DNA of 7,579 nt from Escherichia coli (lineage in GTDB: Bacteria; Pseudomonadota; Gammaproteobacteria; Enterobacterales; Enterobacteriaceae), in assembly GCF_003334305.1 (NCBI RefSeq), contig NZ_QOWS01000045.1; one strand, given 5' to 3'. The notes under the pieces are model-generated. The model did not search any database. It saw nothing but the letters and a program-made list of their open reading frames with translations, and was not told the origin of the DNA. The position numbers were made by a program, and so were the translations under genes. Below, piece after piece: positions 1-7,579 of the stretch (its first letter is position 1; the number at the start of each line of letters is the position of its first letter).

Positions 1-361
<361 letters not shown>

Positions 362-2028: not shown

Positions 2029-2343
2029 TCAGGGGTAAATTATATATCCCATAATCGCACAGATTAACCGGTAATCACTCACGTAGAAGATTTCCGGATT
2101 CTCAGTGCTTTGTTCACCGATAAAGAAGACTTGAGCTCTCTCTTTAGCTTTTTTATTTACTGCTTCTTTTGCTTCTTCCTGCACAGTTTCAAGCTCATTC
2201 AAAAGCATAGTCTTTTTTGGCTTTTGACCAGTCTCCCCACTCAATGTGTAGTTTATAGCTACGCGAGGGCTTAAACTTACCAGATTCGTCTTTTGCCCAT
2301 TCTCCCGAGAGCGGAATGACAATTCGGTTTTCGTCTTGCTCAA
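2029..2343 (-). CDS. hypothetical small protein; either an independent or translationally coupled ORF (alternative ATG at 2206..2208 gives 59 aa) or the frameshifted C-terminal part of the 2195..2941 gene
   Basis: The ORF overlaps the preceding 248-aa ORF by 149 nt in a different frame. The annotated start is a TTG with no clear RBS. An internal ATG at 2206..2208 overlaps the upstream stop (ATGCTTTTGAATGA), a typical coupling arrangement. The ORF ends 4 nt before the terminator hairpin. Confidence 0.3.
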   Translation of the reverse strand: MSKTKTELSFRSRENGQKTNLVSLSPRVAINYTLSGETGQKPKKTMLLNELETVQEEAKEAVNKKAKERAQVFFIGEQSTENPEIFYVSDYRLICAIMGYIIYP

Positions 2344-2941
2344 ATTTCTGCCATAACAACTGCGAATAAAAAACTCGGCGCTCAGGGTAGGGTTGAACCG
2401 GGTCTTTTAGTTTTTTAAACACGGTCATGTAAGTATCGGCATTAATACCTGGGATATTTAATGACATACCACGGTCATACGGGAAGCGAATAAATGCCCT
2501 ACAAATCTGGCGAATAGCATTAACCGGGCGGCGGGATTGCCGCGCTGGAGCATTTCCCCCGCTGGATGCTGACGATGTAGAACGTATTGGATTGGTGTTG
2601 TTGTCGCTACCAGTAGTGCCAGGATCAACAACGGGTCGTTGTTCAATCAATTTTAACCCTGCGGGCATCAAACCCGGTGCGCTGTCTAGCATGTTGCGGA
2701 CGCTTTTTTTCTGTCCCTGCTTAACCACTGTGCTTTCAGCATCTGCATCACAGTTAATATGCTCTTTTCCAGGCATTTTATTAAACGACGGTCTTTTCTT
2801 ACTTCCTTTTTGCCAAGCGGAAGGATACATCTCAATCCCACATCCCCAGCATACGTAACCGTTCGTATCTACAACATCAAGTAACCAAAGATCTTCTGCC
2901 TCAATAATCTCACTGGTATATTTATTACGTGCAGATTCCAT
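2195..2941 (-). CDS. hypothetical protein with N-terminal Cys/His cluster (CWGC...HINC, zinc-ribbon-like), a low-complexity S/T/G/N-rich linker and a C-terminal domain; probable accessory gene of the upstream NTPase
   Basis: Very strong RBS (AAGGAGA 5 nt upstream of ATG 2939..2941). It starts 45 nt after the stop of the 1283-aa gene on the same strand, consistent with an operon. The CxxC...HxxC spacing was read from the translation; no family is recognised. Confidence 0.65.
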   Translation of the reverse strand: MESARNKYTSEIIEAEDLWLLDVVDTNGYVCWGCGIEMYPSAWQKGSKKRPSFNKMPGKEHINCDADAESTVVKQGQKKSVRNMLDSAPGLMPAGLKLIEQRPVVDPGTTGSDNNTNPIRSTSSASSGGNAPARQSRRPVNAIRQICRAFIRFPYDRGMSLNIPGINADTYMTVFKKLKDPVQPYPERRVFYSQLLWQKFEQDENRIVIPLSGEWAKDESGKFKPSRSYKLHIEWGDWSKAKKDYAFE

Positions 2942-2986: not shown

Positions 2987-5900
2987 TTATTCAAACCGTT
3001 GTTCCAATGCCTCATCTTCCAATCGCTCACGTTCTTTTTCCTTTTCAACCCAGTCAGTCAGTTTTTCATAAACAGCTCTAGCCGACTTAGAAATGTCTGC
3101 ACGCTCGTGGGTGACCAACTGGCCTATCGCTTCAACCCTAGGTTGCATCACGTTCGCACGACTACCGAACCATGATGAAGGTGCTACGTGTTCGGCAAAG
3201 ATCTCAAGGACGGCTCGTGGCTCGGGTGAGGCTTCTAGAAATCTCAGAGCATCATCCTGCAAGCAAATAGGACTTTGCTCCCCGTCTTTTGACCATAGAT
3301 TAATACCTGAAGCGACTGAAGCCCAAACCTGAGGGTCTTTAGTGGTCCTGCACCATTCAATCAAAATATCTACATCGATTTTCGCAATAGGAGACTGATG
3401 TGAATCATCATGATTGATGAAATGCAGCCGCCTCTGTTGTTGATCCTCCGTACCATCAAAAATGCGACTGAGAAATTCTTTTGGCATCCATGCAGCGGTG
3501 ATACCGATAGCGTCTTCGAAAGAATAAATGTAGCCAAAATGCTCATCAACAACAGCGAAGATTGTATTCAGCCATTCTAGCTTTTCAGCCTCGTTGCCAT
3601 CGAAGCGCAATGTGGCATCGATAACACGTTCCATTGCATAATCCAGATATCCGCCGAGATCGTTGTGATCTCTTTGGAACCTCTGGATTGCAGCGGATAT
3701 TCCGATTGTTCGTAGCGCAAGACCTAGTGTATCCGTAGCATCTCCTTTATCAGCTAGTTTCATACTCAGTGCTTCCAATACTACTTCATCACCATTCGGT
3801 TTACTCAGCAGCCTTTGAGCTAGCTCGAGGACCCTGCTTTCTGGCAAATTAGAGAATTGCTCACCCCACAGAATTGCCCCATACATATGGGGCTGTATGT
3901 CAGAGTCATCCAGAAGCGACATGCAACGATCCAGATCGATTTCAGTAAACTCCTGCCAAGGATGAAGGTTGACTAATTCGAATCGAAGTTCGGAATGTTG
4001 TGCACACTGATCGAGCAGTTCCTGCGCTAATGCTGAATCGATAGAATGAGTCTCTTCAATGAAACCTCGAATGACCGAAACATCACGTTGAGATTTGTGT
4101 TGTAGATCCAATTGAATGACTAGTTGTTGCCAATAAATTCGTAGGTCAGGAGCCCCGTTAGCTAAGCCTTTACCAAATTCGACGCGATACGGCATTCCAT
4201 CCCGCAAAAAAAGATTAGGGCACAACTCATCAAGTCCATGGGAAGATACTGCAAATTCGTGCCCCAACTTGAAAGCTTTGGCACAAAGTATTTTCCTGAT
4301 TTCACTGAATTTATTAGTTCCTTGGTGCTCATAATCAGCATCTAGAGCCCAAAAATCGCGCCTATTACTGAGTACATAAGCCATGATTGCCGAAACCAAG
4401 TCTTTAGGTTCTAATTCTCGTTCCAATGTCACAAGTATTTCCGGCAATGGTTCTACGTCTTCGTTATCTTTTCTTTTTGTATGGAAAAAGTAGATTGTTG
4501 AGCGGACAGCTTTCCAGCCTTCACCCCAAGGGCGATGGGCATGTAACTTACGAGCCGCATCAATTAATTTTGACCTTATTCCTCCATGACGCCAAATCCA
4601 GCGAAATTTATCAGCCAAGATCCGCCTGGCATCATCTTCAAGCTCGGGCACTCCTGAGGTTCCTAATCTCACCAAAATATCGATGAAGGCGAATAGCCAC
4701 GCAACAAGTTCATCGTAACTGGGTCGAAATCCATAATCTCTTGGCCTAGCACCAAACTCATTAATTCCGAATCCTGTCCACGGAGGTCCGCCGAGAGCAG
4801 TTTCAAGCATTTCGATCCCCATCCTTCTACGTTCGGCCATACTTGAATCAATGCATTCATTCATGATCGCAACACGTTGTTCTAAAGAGGCATGGGTACC
4901 GGATAGATAAGGTTGGAAAAACCTCTTTATCTTATTTCGAGCCGAATCATAATTATTGCTCGCGCTTTCCTGGTCTGCGATACGGATTAAGAGCTTAATG
5001 CATCGTTCAAAGTATTTCGATTCATATGCAAGTAACTGCAACAATTTGATAATTGCTGTTCGTTGTGGGTTGTAGCGTGATTTAAAATGCTCAAAATTAG
5101 ACGTAACAAGCGTTTCTTCAATCCTCTCAAGCAAAGCTCCTGGGGCAACTGGAGCGATATAATTTAGAATGCGTGTCGATACATCATCTAGGTCTATTAT
5201 TTTTCCAAGCAGCCCTTCGGGCTGTAACCAAGCTTCAACAATCTCTTTAGCCACAGCATGGCTATGCAATAGTCCCAACCTGTGCGCGAACGACATCAAT
5301 AATCGTTGCCGATCCGGAGCTTCAAAGGTCGTTCTAAGTTGATCAATCGGAATACTATTAAGTGCAGATGCTGCCAACTTGTTAGCAATGGCATGGGGAA
5401 GGATGGCTCTCCAGTGGGATCTTTTCTGAACAATGTGACGTTCCATCAACTTCGTAACAGCTTTGAATAACTGGATTTTGGGATACCCAGAGAGCACACC
5501 CAATATTTCCAGTTCATCGGTAGCTGCATCTGGACTAGATATCGAGAACGAATACACCAGTGACAATATTTCAGCTTGCTCCCGTAAATGGCCGTCGGGA
5601 TGATTACGTTGTTCAAACAAGCGATTAAACAACTGCGCATCTGAAAGTAGGGCTAAACTCTCACCTTCTTCCACTCTTTCCGCTATAGCCAAAGCCACTC
5701 TTGCATTCCCATCTGCGAACTCTGCAATCCGACGGGCATTATTCTGACCAATAGAAGGGAAGCGACGGATAAGAAGTTGCTCTGCCACGTCTGGACCATC
5801 TGTCTCAATGTGGATGACCTCAGTTGTCTGTGGTTTGTCATCCCTAATGTCGTACTCGATCGTGATGAGACTTACTTCTTTCCCTGCGGCTGATACTTTG

Positions 5901-6838
5901 CTGGCAAGCGAAGCATGGAGTTCTGATGGGCAATTATCAAGGATCATAATTGCTCGCCGGCCTTCAGCGAGCAGGTTATCAAGCATTGCTGTAGCCGACG
6001 GTACTGGCTCATAGCCAGTATCAACATAAATAGCTACTGTTCGGTCAAGCGCATCTGTTCCAACAGTTTCATCAAAGAGCGCCTGAACGATTCGAGTCTT
6101 CCCAACACCAGACAATCCTGTAATACGAACAGCCTTGTTTGTCGAACGGATCAGTGCTCGCATTGGGTTAATTGCTTCATCAATTTTGAGTTTTTGCCCC
6201 TTTCCCGATGGTAAAGTAATGGTTACGCCTGGGGCTGAGATTAAAGTGTCTATAACACCTTGTGGTGGATTGCTCCAGGCTCCGTAGGGTTGCCAACCGG
6301 AATACCCTTGCCCAAGCTTTGCTTTTACCCACAGCATGACTGATGGATGTTGGCGCAACCATTGGATGAGTTTGGAGCGGTCGTAGAAATCAAGATGAAG
6401 ATAACTTTCGTTAGGATCATCTTTTACTGCATCCCTCATCGCTTTGAGACGATCCTTCTTTCCTGACGGCGAGCAATCATCACCCAGGCTGACAATGATG
6501 TAACTGCCTTGCTTTCTGGCTTGTTCAGAAATGATGGGAGAAAGTGCTTTGCCGGTGCCAATTTCCCTCTCAATTGCAGACTTAGGCATCTTATGTTTCT
6601 TTGCCTGAAAGACCGTATCAGGTCTTACAAGAAAGCCTGCTTTCAGTTGATCAATTGGAACCTGAACATGGATGTCAATTCCTCCGTCAGGGGCTGTAAT
6701 TGAACCAGACCAATTTACACATGCTGGGCTATGGCCGTGCATTGCCACTTCAGCTTCTGCTAGCCGAGCGATCAGCTCTTCCAGCTGGATATCGGAGAGC
6801 CGAAGTAATTCGTCCTTTTCAATGTCAAAGATTGCCAC
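2987..6838 (-). CDS. Large multidomain defence-type protein: N-terminal Mrr-like PD-(D/E)xK nuclease domain + STAND/AAA+-type P-loop NTPase + long C-terminal helical (probable sensor) region; Avs-like antiviral STAND candidate
   Basis: A 1283-aa ORF with no internal stop. The Mrr-like signature is DGGID (aa 51-55, nt 6674..6688) plus QAK (aa 78-80, nt 6599..6607). Walker A GLSGVGKT is at aa 241-248 (nt 6095..6118), Walker B IMILDN around aa 297-302 (nt 5933..5950) and a GNAR lid/sensor-like motif at aa 377-380 (nt 5699..5710). The remaining roughly 850 aa are predominantly helical-looking sequence. The start is a GTG with an in-frame TAG 12 nt upstream and a weak SD, so the start codon is uncertain. 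Confidence 0.85.
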   Translation of the reverse strand: MAIFDIEKDELLRLSDIQLEELIARLAEAEVAMHGHSPACVNWSGSITAPDGGIDIHVQVPIDQLKAGFLVRPDTVFQAKKHKMPKSAIEREIGTGKALSPIISEQARKQGSYIIVSLGDDCSPSGKKDRLKAMRDAVKDDPNESYLHLDFYDRSKLIQWLRQHPSVMLWVKAKLGQGYSGWQPYGAWSNPPQGVIDTLISAPGVTITLPSGKGQKLKIDEAINPMRALIRSTNKAVRITGLSGVGKTRIVQALFDETVGTDALDRTVAIYVDTGYEPVPSATAMLDNLLAEGRRAIMILDNCPSELHASLASKVSAAGKEVSLITIEYDIRDDKPQTTEVIHIETDGPDVAEQLLIRRFPSIGQNNARRIAEFADGNARVALAIAERVEEGESLALLSDAQLFNRLFEQRNHPDGHLREQAEILSLVYSFSISSPDAATDELEILGVLSGYPKIQLFKAVTKLMERHIVQKRSHWRAILPHAIANKLAASALNSIPIDQLRTTFEAPDRQRLLMSFAHRLGLLHSHAVAKEIVEAWLQPEGLLGKIIDLDDVSTRILNYIAPVAPGALLERIEETLVTSNFEHFKSRYNPQRTAIIKLLQLLAYESKYFERCIKLLIRIADQESASNNYDSARNKIKRFFQPYLSGTHASLEQRVAIMNECIDSSMAERRRMGIEMLETALGGPPWTGFGINEFGARPRDYGFRPSYDELVAWLFAFIDILVRLGTSGVPELEDDARRILADKFRWIWRHGGIRSKLIDAARKLHAHRPWGEGWKAVRSTIYFFHTKRKDNEDVEPLPEILVTLERELEPKDLVSAIMAYVLSNRRDFWALDADYEHQGTNKFSEIRKILCAKAFKLGHEFAVSSHGLDELCPNLFLRDGMPYRVEFGKGLANGAPDLRIYWQQLVIQLDLQHKSQRDVSVIRGFIEETHSIDSALAQELLDQCAQHSELRFELVNLHPWQEFTEIDLDRCMSLLDDSDIQPHMYGAILWGEQFSNLPESRVLELAQRLLSKPNGDEVVLEALSMKLADKGDATDTLGLALRTIGISAAIQRFQRDHNDLGGYLDYAMERVIDATLRFDGNEAEKLEWLNTIFAVVDEHFGYIYSFEDAIGITAAWMPKEFLSRIFDGTEDQQQRRLHFINHDDSHQSPIAKIDVDILIEWCRTTKDPQVWASVASGINLWSKDGEQSPICLQDDALRFLEASPEPRAVLEIFAEHVAPSSWFGSRANVMQPRVEAIGQLVTHERADISKSARAVYEKLTDWVEKEKERERLEDEALEQRFE

Positions 6839-7232
6839 TTTTAAACCCTATAAAAGATATTGCGACCATAGAAAAAGTTGCTCTTAGTCTAACCAATGAG
6901 GGAAGAGATGTCCGCTGAACATTTACAATTAAAACCATCCACTTCAATTGGTTAAGATGTTCTGACTCAGAACTGTGATGTCGATCATACCTACTTTTAC
7001 GTAGAGCTATCAGTATGTATGAAACTAAGGTCTAGTATGAACAAAGGACAGGCTCATGCTTTATATGACTGTGAGGTTAACGAGCATTCTAGGTGCAAAA
7101 AGTTCCACTAACTTGATGATTTTTTATTCTTGAGGTGGTTTAGTGCGAGTTTAAAAATTTGGCTAATGTTTAAGATCAATAAATAAGTCCTGATTTTTTA
7201 CTCTTTAGCAATTTTGTTAGCATTTTGTGTAC

Positions 7233-7252
7233 ATTAAAAATGAATTTTTAAT
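7233..7252. promoter_or_regulatory. Perfect palindrome ATTAAAAAT-GA-ATTTTTAAT (9-bp arms, 2-bp spacer); candidate operator in the divergent promoter region
   Basis: Read directly from the sequence. It lies about 54 nt upstream of the RBS-equipped ATG at 7306 and within the AT-rich region upstream of the large minus-strand gene. AT-rich DNA gives such palindromes by chance at some rate, hence the low confidence. Confidence 0.25.
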
Positions 7253-7305
7253 ATTAGTTTTTTTTAGATTTGGTTGTTTAAAATTTTATTGGGTGGAGTA
7301 CCAAT

Positions 7306-7540
7306 ATGAAATGGATAAAAAGCACTTAACCTTCAGCAATGGGCAGATTCTATTCCTGCAAAAGTTATTTTTCCAGCACTAATCGCTGATCTTATACGTG
7401 CAACGGCTAACAGTATTACTGAAATTAGATTTCCTAATGGTGATAAGGGACAGGTTAGAGGTTATGACGGTGTACTTAAAGCCGAGGGGGTGGCCCCCTA
7501 TGTGATCTTACCCAGCAATAGTGGACACGCGGCTAAGTGA
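7306..7540 (+). pseudogene. Small plus-strand reading frame interrupted by a frameshift at an A5 run (MKWIKST-stop in frame; 73 stop-free codons follow in the +1 frame)
   Basis: ATG 7306..7308 has a good RBS (GGTGGAG, 7-nt spacer) but hits TAA after 7 codons. The next frame is open from 7319 to TGA 7538..7540 and has no ATG/GTG/TTG near its start. Removing one A from the run at 7317..7321 would fuse the two into a 78-aa ORF. Confidence 0.2.
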
Positions 7541-7567
7541 GTAAACTCTCAGTCAGAGGTGACTCAC

Positions 7568-7579
7568 ATGACAAAAACA
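7568..7579 (+). CDS. 5' end of a plus-strand gene running off the window (MTKT...)
   Basis: ATG 7568..7570 is preceded by GAGGTG (7556..7561) with a 6-nt spacer. Only 4 codons are in the window, so the product is unknown. This ATG is in the same frame as the open stretch 7319..7537, separated only by the TGA at 7538. Confidence 0.3.

What the first reader, a model, noticed from the sequence alone, without database searches (positions are those of the whole stretch)
7306..7579. Plus-strand frame with a start, a frameshift at an A5 run and an in-frame TGA before the next ATG
ATG 7306 with a good RBS terminates after 7 codons. A +1 frame then runs 73 codons without a stop (…ITEIRFPNGDKGQVRGYDGVLKAEGVAPYV…) to TGA 7538. 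The ATG at 7568 (RBS GAGGTG) is in that same frame. The options are a two-gene operon whose first gene has a homopolymer indel (genuine pseudogene, sequencing error, or slippage-prone tract), or one longer gene carrying both a frameshift and a nonsense mutation. Either way a second, possibly decayed, locus sits divergent to the NTPase.
Basis: seen in the sequence. Interest (0 to 1): 0.45.

Follow-up and report, generated by a model that had tools for sequence, protein, structure and literature searches.

The report
IS3-truncated stub of a large gene
The short broken reading frame is the first 196 bases of a 3.7-kb gene that an IS3 insertion sequence cut off, so it is an ordinary dead gene remnant, although the intact gene belongs to a large uncharacterised family that sits beside a known anti-phage system.

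Summary
The TGA at 7538 and the ATG at 7568 are both IS3 sequence. The TGA is IS3's own stop in that reading frame, and the ATG starts the IS3 transposase gene orfA. Window 7306-7502 is the 5' end (196 nt plus one extra A) of a 3747-nt, 1248-codon gene. That gene is intact in 58 complete E. coli genomes, for example 55989 (WP_000871158.1). Another 80 genomes share the identical stub-IS3 junction. Removing two IS3 copies and their 3-bp duplications from strain GE3 rebuilds the 55989 gene at 3747/3747 nt. The window is 100% identical to E. coli A7. In A7 the DNA beyond IS3 is also deleted, so IS3 abuts a truncated P2-like prophage. The A5 run is private to A7 (1 of 138 genomes; the rest have A4). 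It is either a late mutation in an already dead gene or an assembly error. The finding is an ordinary pseudogene remnant. As a by-product, the parent protein family (about 1250 aa, 3351 cluster representatives, no Pfam, PADLOC or PDB sequence match) has a predicted nuclease, a P-loop-less AAA+/STAND-like domain and a helical solenoid.

The parts
7291..7298 (+). Shine-Dalgarno-like GGGTGGAG, 7 nt upstream of the native start codon
   Evidence: Read directly from the sequence. It is identical in genomes where the gene is intact.
7306..7502 (+). 5' remnant of the 1248-codon gene (WP_000871158.1 family): 196 native nt (codons 1-65 plus the first base of codon 66) and one extra A
   Evidence: Identical to GE3 and 55989 apart from the extra A. 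The rebuilt GE3 gene equals the 55989 gene at 3747/3747 nt. The intact CDS is annotated in 55989.
7317..7321 (+). A5 homopolymer in codon 5; the +1 frameshift allele private to strain A7
   Evidence: A4 in GE3. A5 in 1 of 138 genomes and A4 in 137. It is the only difference from A28 over 3085 nt, and one of two differences from 55989 over 9197 nt.
7306..7329 (+). Seven-codon ORF (MKWIKST*) left by the frameshift
7500..7502 (+). ATG, the left copy of the 3-bp IS3 target-site duplication (not a start codon)
   Evidence: In GE3 the same IS3 is flanked by ATG on both sides. In A7 the right-hand copy is missing.
7503..7579 (+). First 77 nt of a 1258-bp IS3 element (left inverted repeat about 7503-7541); it runs off the window
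   Evidence: The IRL sequence TGATCTTACCC... is found at 7503. The full element is 1258 bp in A7, with 28/39 matching terminal inverted repeats and orfA/orfB. It is annotated as an IS3-like element transposase. The left end occurs in 4281 of 5426 E. coli genomes.
7538..7540 (+). TGA inside the IS3 left end; it terminates any frame-2 translation entering the element
   Evidence: IS3 has stops in all three frames within its first 42 nt (translations: '*', 'DLTQQ*', 'ILPSNSGHAAK*').
7568..7579 (+). Start of IS3 orfA (MTKT...), preceded by its own GAGGTG ribosome-binding site
   Evidence: The annotated transposase CDS starts at L001 9719, which is window 7568.
6839..7305 (.). AT-rich (32% GC) divergent intergenic region between Avs8A and the stub
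   Evidence: The promoter scan was not above background and there were no Rfam hits.
2987..6838 (-). Context: Avs8A / PD-Lambda-4_A, the divergent 'NTPase' neighbour, intact
   Evidence: Full-length PADLOC match, 2531 bits. The accession WP_000963924.1 is the ECOR07 Avs8A characterised in bioRxiv 10.1101/2025.07.02.662641.

Best explanation
Window 7306-7502 is the dead 5' stub of a 3747-nt gene for a 1248-aa protein (WP_000871158.1 in E. coli 55989). The gene lies between the Avs8 (PD-lambda-4) defence operon and the integrase of the genomic island at ssrA. An IS3 element (1258 bp) inserted after nucleotide 196 of the gene, in the same orientation, and duplicated the triplet ATG. Translation from the native start therefore runs 65 codons into IS3 and stops at the element's own frame-2 TGA (7538). 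The next ATG (7568) is IS3 orfA. In the lineage of this window (E. coli A7), the DNA to the right of IS3 was later deleted. The lost DNA includes the remaining 3551 nt of the gene, the island integrase and the early half of a P2-like prophage integrated at ssrA. As a result the IS3 right end now abuts a truncated DUF4145 gene beside the phage portal gene. One extra A in the A4 run of codon 5 is present in this assembly only. Shown directly: the sequence identities, the IS3 boundaries, the target duplications, the empty site in other genomes, the deletion joints and the allele counts. Inferred: the order of events, a single origin for the insertion, the deletion mechanism (recombination between two IS3 copies or intramolecular transposition), and that the stub has no function.
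For: The window is 100% identical to A7. IS3 IRL is at 7503, the element is 1258 bp, and the transposase CDS starts at 7568. In GE3 the same insertion is flanked by ATG/ATG, and a second IS3 in the same gene by TAT/TAT. Removing both gives one 1248-codon ORF that matches the intact 55989 gene at 3747/3747 nt. The site is empty in 58 genomes, the identical stub-IS3 junction is in 80, and 58 + 80 = 138 genomes carry the stub. A5 occurs only in A7. The right flanks in A7 and A28 lack the ATG duplication and join prophage DNA at two nested points: L005 4343, and L005 6501, which is 240 nt inside DUF4145. The A7 order is ssrA, ogr, tail and head genes, portal, DUF4145 fragment, IS3, stub. The gene is real: 427 homologs of about 1250 aa at 45-83% identity over the full length and 3351 cluster representatives.
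Against: Nothing contradicts the IS3-truncation reading. Four points remain open. (1) Sequence alone cannot show whether the extra A is a real mutation or a homopolymer assembly error. (2) I did not prove that the rest of the gene is absent from the whole A7 chromosome. It is absent from the ssrA interval, and A7 was not among the 60 listed of 149 genomes that carry the next 1266 nt. (3) A single origin for the 80 shared junctions is inferred from identical position and orientation, not from a phylogeny. (4) Only complete E. coli genomes were surveyed.
Confidence: 0.95

Rival explanations
1. First reader, option 1: a two-gene operon whose first gene (7306-7540) has a homopolymer indel and whose second gene starts at ATG 7568.
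For: The A-run indel is real relative to 137 other genomes. In A4 genomes RefSeq annotates a 78-aa CDS, WP_000871156.1, followed 27 nt later by another CDS.
Against: The 'second gene' is the IS3 transposase, present in 4281 of 5426 genomes at a median of 3 copies. The 78-aa CDS is a chimera of 65 native codons, one junction codon and 11 IS3-encoded codons before the stop. The empty site in 58 genomes shows one continuous 1248-codon gene.
Confidence: 0.01
2. First reader, option 2: one longer gene carrying both a frameshift and a point nonsense mutation (TGA 7538), continuing from ATG 7568.
For: There was indeed one longer gene, and the frameshift is there.
Against: TGA 7538 is wild-type IS3 sequence, not a mutated sense codon. 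The native gene continues ...APY-VPDGDSFWEFGV..., and that sequence is not in the window at all. The same frame for 7568 is coincidental: it is IS3 orfA.
Confidence: 0.02
3. The extra A is not biological. It is a homopolymer error in the A7 assembly, so the true A7 sequence is the A4 stub seen in the other 79 IS3-bearing genomes.
For: The allele is a singleton (1 of 138). It is the only difference from A28 over 3085 nt and one of two differences from 55989 over 9197 nt. Homopolymer indels are the typical long-read assembly error (general knowledge). GE3 has a similar private A5-to-A4 change at window 1624.
Against: A7 shows no other homopolymer indel in 9.6 kb of comparison. A gene already killed by IS3 is free to accumulate such mutations. 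No reads are available to decide.
Confidence: 0.45
4. The A-run is a programmed frameshift site or a phase-variable (contingency) tract that switches the gene on and off.
For: A homopolymer early in a probable defence-island gene is the usual layout of phase-variable loci (general knowledge).
Against: Tract length is invariant (A4) in 137 of 138 genomes, including all 58 with an intact gene. A 4-5 nt run is far shorter than known slippage tracts. In A7 nothing is left downstream to switch.
Confidence: 0.01
5. The stub has gained a new role, for example as a small protein, or as a promoter and leader that drives read-through expression of IS3 orfA, which lies in the same orientation.
For: The native promoter region, ribosome-binding site and start codon are intact and point into IS3. 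In A4 genomes the stop at 7538 lies 27 nt before the orfA start.
Against: The stub ends at residue 65-66, in the middle of the most conserved block of the N-terminal domain and before the invariant S71, W73 and E74. IS3 carries stops in all three frames at its end, which fits insulation from incoming translation. There are no expression data, and the promoter scan was not above background.
Confidence: 0.04

Closest known systems
IS3 insertion into a chromosomal gene (IS3 family, IS3 group; 1258 bp, orfA/orfB with programmed -1 frameshift, 3-bp target duplication)
   Same: The element is 1258 bp with imperfect terminal inverted repeats (TGATC...GATCA). It has orfA and orfB and is annotated with a programmed frameshift. 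In GE3 it is flanked by 3-bp duplications (ATG, TAT). It is multicopy in most E. coli genomes.
   Different: In this genome the right-hand duplication is gone, because the flanking DNA was deleted up to a P2-like prophage. Only the first 77 nt of the element lie in the window.
IS-anchored adjacent deletions, or recombination between IS copies, in genomic islands
   Same: One IS end stays fixed (same left junction in A7, A28 and GE3) while the other end joins different distal points. The A28 and A7 joints are nested.
   Different: The mechanism is not resolved. No ancestor with a second, directly repeated IS3 in the prophage was found.
Avs (antiviral STAND NTPase) proteins such as Avs4 and the neighbouring Avs8A / PD-lambda-4_A. 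This comparison is for the intact parent protein, not the stub.
   Different: The family has no Walker A GK[ST]; an invariant AADSPDEV replaces the P-loop. There is no PADLOC, NCBIfam, Pfam or PDB sequence match. The profile comparison with Avs8A has only 11% probability. The canonical ExK lysine is a glycine (E74-F-G76). There is no experimental evidence of defence.
phrog_18693 (PHROGs family of unknown function)
   Same: End-to-end match, residues 1-1248 to profile positions 1-1255 of 1258, 1851 bits.
   Different: The PHROG carries no functional annotation, so membership adds only that relatives occur in phage or prophage genomes.

Membership tests
IS3 insertion sequence | Imperfect terminal inverted repeats starting 5'-TG and ending CA-3' | tested here: met
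   IRL TGATCTTACCC... against the reverse complement of IRR TGATCCTACCC..., 28/39 matches. IRL starts at window 7503.
IS3 insertion sequence | About 1.25-kb element with overlapping orfA and orfB and a programmed -1 frameshift | tested here: met
   The element is 1258 bp in A7. orfA (MTKTVSTSKKPRKQH...) and orfB are in adjacent frames. RefSeq annotates 'IS3-like element IS3 family transposase, programmed frameshift'. Only nt 1-77 lie in the window.
IS3 insertion sequence | 3-bp target-site duplication | tested here: met
   ATG/ATG and TAT/TAT flank the two copies in GE3. It is not met at the A7 and A28 right flanks, which are deletion joints.
Pseudogene remnant of the WP_000871158.1 gene | Nucleotide identity to the 5' end of an intact gene at the orthologous locus | tested here: met
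   196/196 nt once the extra A is removed. The intact 3747-nt CDS sits at the same position in 55989, and 58 genomes have the empty site.
Pseudogene remnant of the WP_000871158.1 gene | The rest of the coding sequence is missing or disrupted | tested here: met
   IS3 begins at 7503. In A7 the far side is a DUF4145 fragment and prophage DNA.
Phase-variable or programmed-frameshift homopolymer locus | Tract length varies among or within strains and toggles an otherwise intact ORF | tested here: not met
   A4 in 137 of 138 genomes and A5 only in A7. There is no intact ORF downstream in A7.
   ATG 7568 is the IS3 orfA start.
STAND/Avs antiviral NTPases (parent protein) | P-loop NTPase with Walker A GxxxxGK[ST] | tested here: not met
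   No conserved GK[ST] in 120 family members. The position between strand 216-220 and helix 224-236 is an invariant AAD222-S-P-D-E226-V.
STAND/Avs antiviral NTPases (parent protein) | AAA+/STAND-like alpha/beta fold following an N-terminal effector domain | tested here: inconclusive
STAND/Avs antiviral NTPases (parent protein) | Recognised by curated defence-system sequence models | tested here: not met
   No PADLOC v2.0.0 hit and no NCBIfam hit. hhalign against Avs8A gives 11% probability.
STAND/Avs antiviral NTPases (parent protein) | Protection against phage | not testable with these tools
   No literature mentions the accessions.
PD-(D/E)xK nuclease superfamily (N-terminal domain of the parent protein) | alpha-beta-beta-beta-alpha-beta core fold | tested here: met
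PD-(D/E)xK nuclease superfamily (N-terminal domain of the parent protein) | Catalytic D ... (D/E)xK motif | tested here: inconclusive
   D54 and E74 are invariant and sit on the expected strands, but the +2 position is an invariant G76. Invariant K47 or K84 might substitute. The stub ends at residue 65-66, before E74.

The most novel reading that the evidence does not exclude
The gene destroyed here belongs to a very large, length-conserved, unstudied family: about 1250 aa, 3351 cluster representatives, found from Proteobacteria to Bacteroidota, Firmicutes, Cyanobacteria and Methanococcus, and also phrog_18693. Its predicted build is a PD-(D/E)xK-like nuclease, then an AAA+/STAND-like domain that has lost its P-loop, then an alpha-solenoid. 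That resembles Avs sensors, and it lies in integrase-bounded or defence islands, here back to back with Avs8. It could be a new nucleotide-independent Avs-like immune sensor. The two independent IS3 hits in GE3 and the deletions in A7 and A28 would then be loss of a costly or redundant defence gene.
Probability: 0.3. Interest if true: 0.55.

Novelty: already known. Interest (0 to 1): 0.12.

Why it matters
For the finding itself it matters little. It is a routine IS3-generated pseudogene, and recognising the IS3 end at 7503 removes the apparent puzzle of a frameshift plus a nonsense codon plus a same-frame ATG.

It has two practical uses. First, RefSeq's 78-aa 'hypothetical protein' WP_000871156.1 and the 432/433-aa and 750/751-aa 'hypothetical proteins' in GE3-type genomes are fragments of a single gene, partly fused to IS3 sequence. 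They should be annotated as pseudogene pieces.

Second, the locus points to an intact, widespread and completely uncharacterised 1250-aa family next to a validated defence system. That family is a reasonable candidate for experimental anti-phage testing.

Tried and rejected
1. Sequence-model identification of the parent protein found nothing significant.
2. Paralogy with the neighbour Avs8A was not established. BLASTP gave only borderline but collinear hits (E about 0.02). hhalign of the family profile against the single Avs8A sequence gave 11% probability, so this is inconclusive. I ran no further search on building an Avs8A profile.
3. I looked for the rest of the gene in A7. A7 was not among the 60 listed of 149 genomes that hold the next 1266 nt. 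That is not proof of absence, but the annotated ssrA interval of A7 has no room for it.
4. The promoter and terminator scan of 6800-7579 was not above shuffles. Rfam found nothing in the window. The repeat scan found only one weak 18-nt direct pair.
6. A literature search for the protein accessions and the PHROG id returned nothing.
7. ORF length as evidence was rejected: 73 open codons is within chance for this composition.

Full report
OBSERVATION. The coordinates are exact.
- ATG 7306, 7 nt after GGGTGGAG, reads MKWIKST and stops at TAA 7327.
- The A5 run is 7317-7321.
- The +1 frame is open from 7319 to TGA 7538 (73 codons).
- ATG 7568 is in that same frame.
A stop-free run of 73 codons is not remarkable at this composition. 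The window has 17 such runs, against 10.5 +/- 3.0 in shuffles. ORF length alone therefore proves nothing.

A megablast of 6850-7579 against complete E. coli genomes found one 100% match, strain A7 (NZ_CP028767.1). The right end of the query was annotated everywhere as an IS3 transposase and matched 4281 of 5426 genomes. The whole window equals A7 (L001 2152-9730). The IS3 left inverted repeat (TGATCTTACCCAGC...) starts at window 7503, and in A7 the element is 1258 bp. The annotated transposase CDS starts at L001 9719, which is window 7568. IS3 has stop codons in all three frames within its first 42 nt, and the frame-2 stop is the TGA at 7538. The '73-codon frame' is therefore 61 codons of gene (7319-7501), one codon spanning the junction, and 11 codons (ILPSNSGHAAK) plus the stop read from the IS3 end. 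The 'next ATG' is IS3 orfA.

THE GENE THAT WAS HIT. In strain GE3 the same IS3 sits at the same site, flanked by ATG on both sides. A second, inverted IS3 lies 1266 nt further on, flanked by TAT on both sides. Removing both elements and one copy of each duplication gives a single 1248-codon ORF that starts at the finding's ATG. This reconstruction matches, at 3747 of 3747 nt, an intact gene annotated in E. coli 55989 (WP_000871158.1, 'hypothetical protein'). There the gene lies between the Avs8 operon and the integrase of the island at ssrA. Among complete E. coli genomes:
- 138 carry the 5' end of the gene.
- 58 of these have the uninterrupted site.
- 80 have the identical stub-IS3 junction.
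The most economical reading is one ancestral insertion, but that is an inference.

THE FRAMESHIFT. GE3, 55989 and A28 have A4 where the window has A5. In a 90-nt search, only A7 of 138 genomes has A5. With A4 the start reads MKWIKALNLQQWADS..., which matches the conserved N-terminus of the family, where W3 is invariant. Over 9.2 kb A7 differs from 55989 by one SNP plus this base. Over 3.1 kb it differs from A28 by this base alone. I cannot tell a recent neutral mutation from a homopolymer assembly error and put the odds at roughly even. The invariance of A4 excludes phase variation or programmed frameshifting.

WHAT ELSE HAPPENED IN THIS GENOME. In A7 the right flank of IS3 lacks the ATG duplication. 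It continues into the C-terminal part of a DUF4145 gene next to the portal gene of a P2-like prophage. Reading on, the A7 order is stub, IS3, DUF4145 fragment, portal, terminase, capsid, lysis and tail genes, D, ogr, a reverse-transcriptase-domain gene, ssrA, smpB. Three things are missing from this interval: the remaining 3551 nt of the gene, the island integrase and the early half of the prophage. Strain A28 has the same left junction and an identical IS3. Its right joint lies 2.2 kb further out, so a 434-aa gene and the full DUF4145 gene survive there. The A7 joint maps 240 nt inside that DUF4145 gene. These are nested deletions anchored on the IS3 right end. They could have arisen by recombination between IS3 copies or by intramolecular transposition, and I could not decide between the two.

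THE PARENT PROTEIN (context, not the finding).
- Homologs: 427 in the word-indexed search, nearly all 1245-1260 aa and 45-83% identical over the full length, and none named. An exhaustive search with residues 1-430 finds 3351 cluster representatives, 1274 of them at E <= 1e-30.
- Spread: AFDB relatives span many phyla, including Methanococcus. The protein matches phrog_18693 end to end.
- Models that find nothing: PADLOC, NCBIfam, Pfam and PDB sequence searches.
- Residues 431-1248 (pLDDT 84): an all-alpha solenoid with only generic HEAT/TOG-like matches.
- Motifs: the family has no Walker A, and an invariant AADSPDEV sits where the P-loop should be. D54 and E74 are invariant, but the canonical lysine position is G76.
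- Variant form: a subset has an N-terminal HTH_3 extension, which explains the stray 'XRE regulator' labels.
- Genomic context: distant homologs lie in integrase-bounded or variable islands with no fixed partner gene.
- Relation to Avs8A: similarity is limited to one motif-like segment and is not significant.
The stub ends at residue 65-66, inside the most conserved block and before S71, W73 and E74, so it cannot encode a folded domain.

NEIGHBOUR. The divergent 1283-aa protein is PD-Lambda-4_A over its full length. This system has been renamed Avs8, a STAND NTPase with an Mrr nuclease domain that senses phage major capsid proteins (bioRxiv 10.1101/2025.07.02.662641 and 10.64898/2026.01.04.697583). 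The A7 accessions WP_000963924.1 and WP_000443183.1 are the ECOR07 Avs8A and Avs8B used in that work.

VERDICT. The feature is an ordinary IS3-truncated pseudogene stub with a private one-base homopolymer change. Interest is low. The only forward-looking element is that the intact gene belongs to a large uncharacterised family with an Avs-like but P-loop-less architecture.

Noticed in passing
window 2029-2941 (- strand); A6 run at 2213-2218: Avs8B / PD-Lambda-4_B is split relative to the 303-position PADLOC profile. ORF 2195-2941 covers profile 1-245 and ORF 2029-2343 covers 238-303. Removing one A from the A6 run in GCCAAAAAAGAC would read ...KAKKTMLLNELETVQ... and join the two (by eye). The same 248-aa allele (WP_000443183.1) is annotated in A7, GE3, 55989 and A28. 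It is also the ECOR07 Avs8B reported as dispensable, so that result may have been obtained with a frameshift-truncated allele.
   Followed up: partly
window 2987-6838 (-) and 2195-2941 (-): The window carries an intact Avs8 (PD-lambda-4) anti-phage system. Its protein accessions are identical to the experimentally characterised ECOR07 system.
   Followed up: yes
window 1-361; L001 979-2512: The left edge of the window is the start of another IS3-family transposase gene (WP_085968792.1). It truncates a YeeP-like GTPase pseudogene (window 62-361, - strand). The Avs8 island segment is therefore bracketed by IS3-family elements on both sides.
   Followed up: no
window 1624 (ORF 880-1761, +): GE3 has a private A5-to-A4 change in GATAAAAAGG, which shortens the 293-aa hypothetical protein to a 257-aa annotated CDS. 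This is a second single-genome homopolymer indel in the same island, in the same sequence context as the one in the finding.
   Followed up: partly
L001 10912-11370; L004 23268-39501; L005 4343-6959: A7 carries a P2-like prophage remnant at ssrA that lacks its integrase and early region. It has a reverse-transcriptase-domain gene next to ogr, and a DUF4145 gene missing its first 240 nt next to the portal gene. A28 retains a 434-aa gene plus the full DUF4145 gene at this cargo position. The IS3-anchored deletions are nested.
   Followed up: partly
L002 9457-15725 (GE3): RefSeq annotates three separate 'hypothetical proteins' (WP_000871156.1, 78 aa; WP_000532680.1, 432/433 aa; WP_000188801.1, 750/751 aa). 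All three are fragments of one IS3-disrupted gene, and two of them borrow start or stop codons from IS3 ends. UniProt labels the 432-aa piece 'Addiction module'.
   Followed up: yes
NZ_CP010178.1 (strain H15), hits H8 and H102: In H15 the stub is on the minus strand at 2575094-2575822, but the next 1266-nt gene segment is on the plus strand about 4.4 kb away. This suggests an inversion between the two inverted IS3 copies.
   Followed up: no
parent protein residues 529-644 vs Avs8A residues 558-665: There is a local motif resemblance (AEAAPGPFLDALEQLL / APVAPGALLERIEETL; ALEALAWEQTYLLRAAICLAKLA / LLQLLAYESKYFERCIKLLIRIA). The BLASTP hits are collinear but statistically weak. The two divergently transcribed giants may share remote ancestry.
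   Followed up: partly
P0226, P0227, P0236, P0262 (family members of 1338-1359 aa): A subset of the family carries an N-terminal HTH_3 (XRE-type) domain of about 90-115 residues fused ahead of the nuclease-like domain.
   Followed up: partly
window 7117-7134 and 7191-7208: An 18-nt imperfect direct repeat (TGATTTTTTAYTCTTKAG) with 74-nt spacing lies in the AT-rich divergent intergenic region. It may be a chance match in low-complexity DNA.
   Followed up: no
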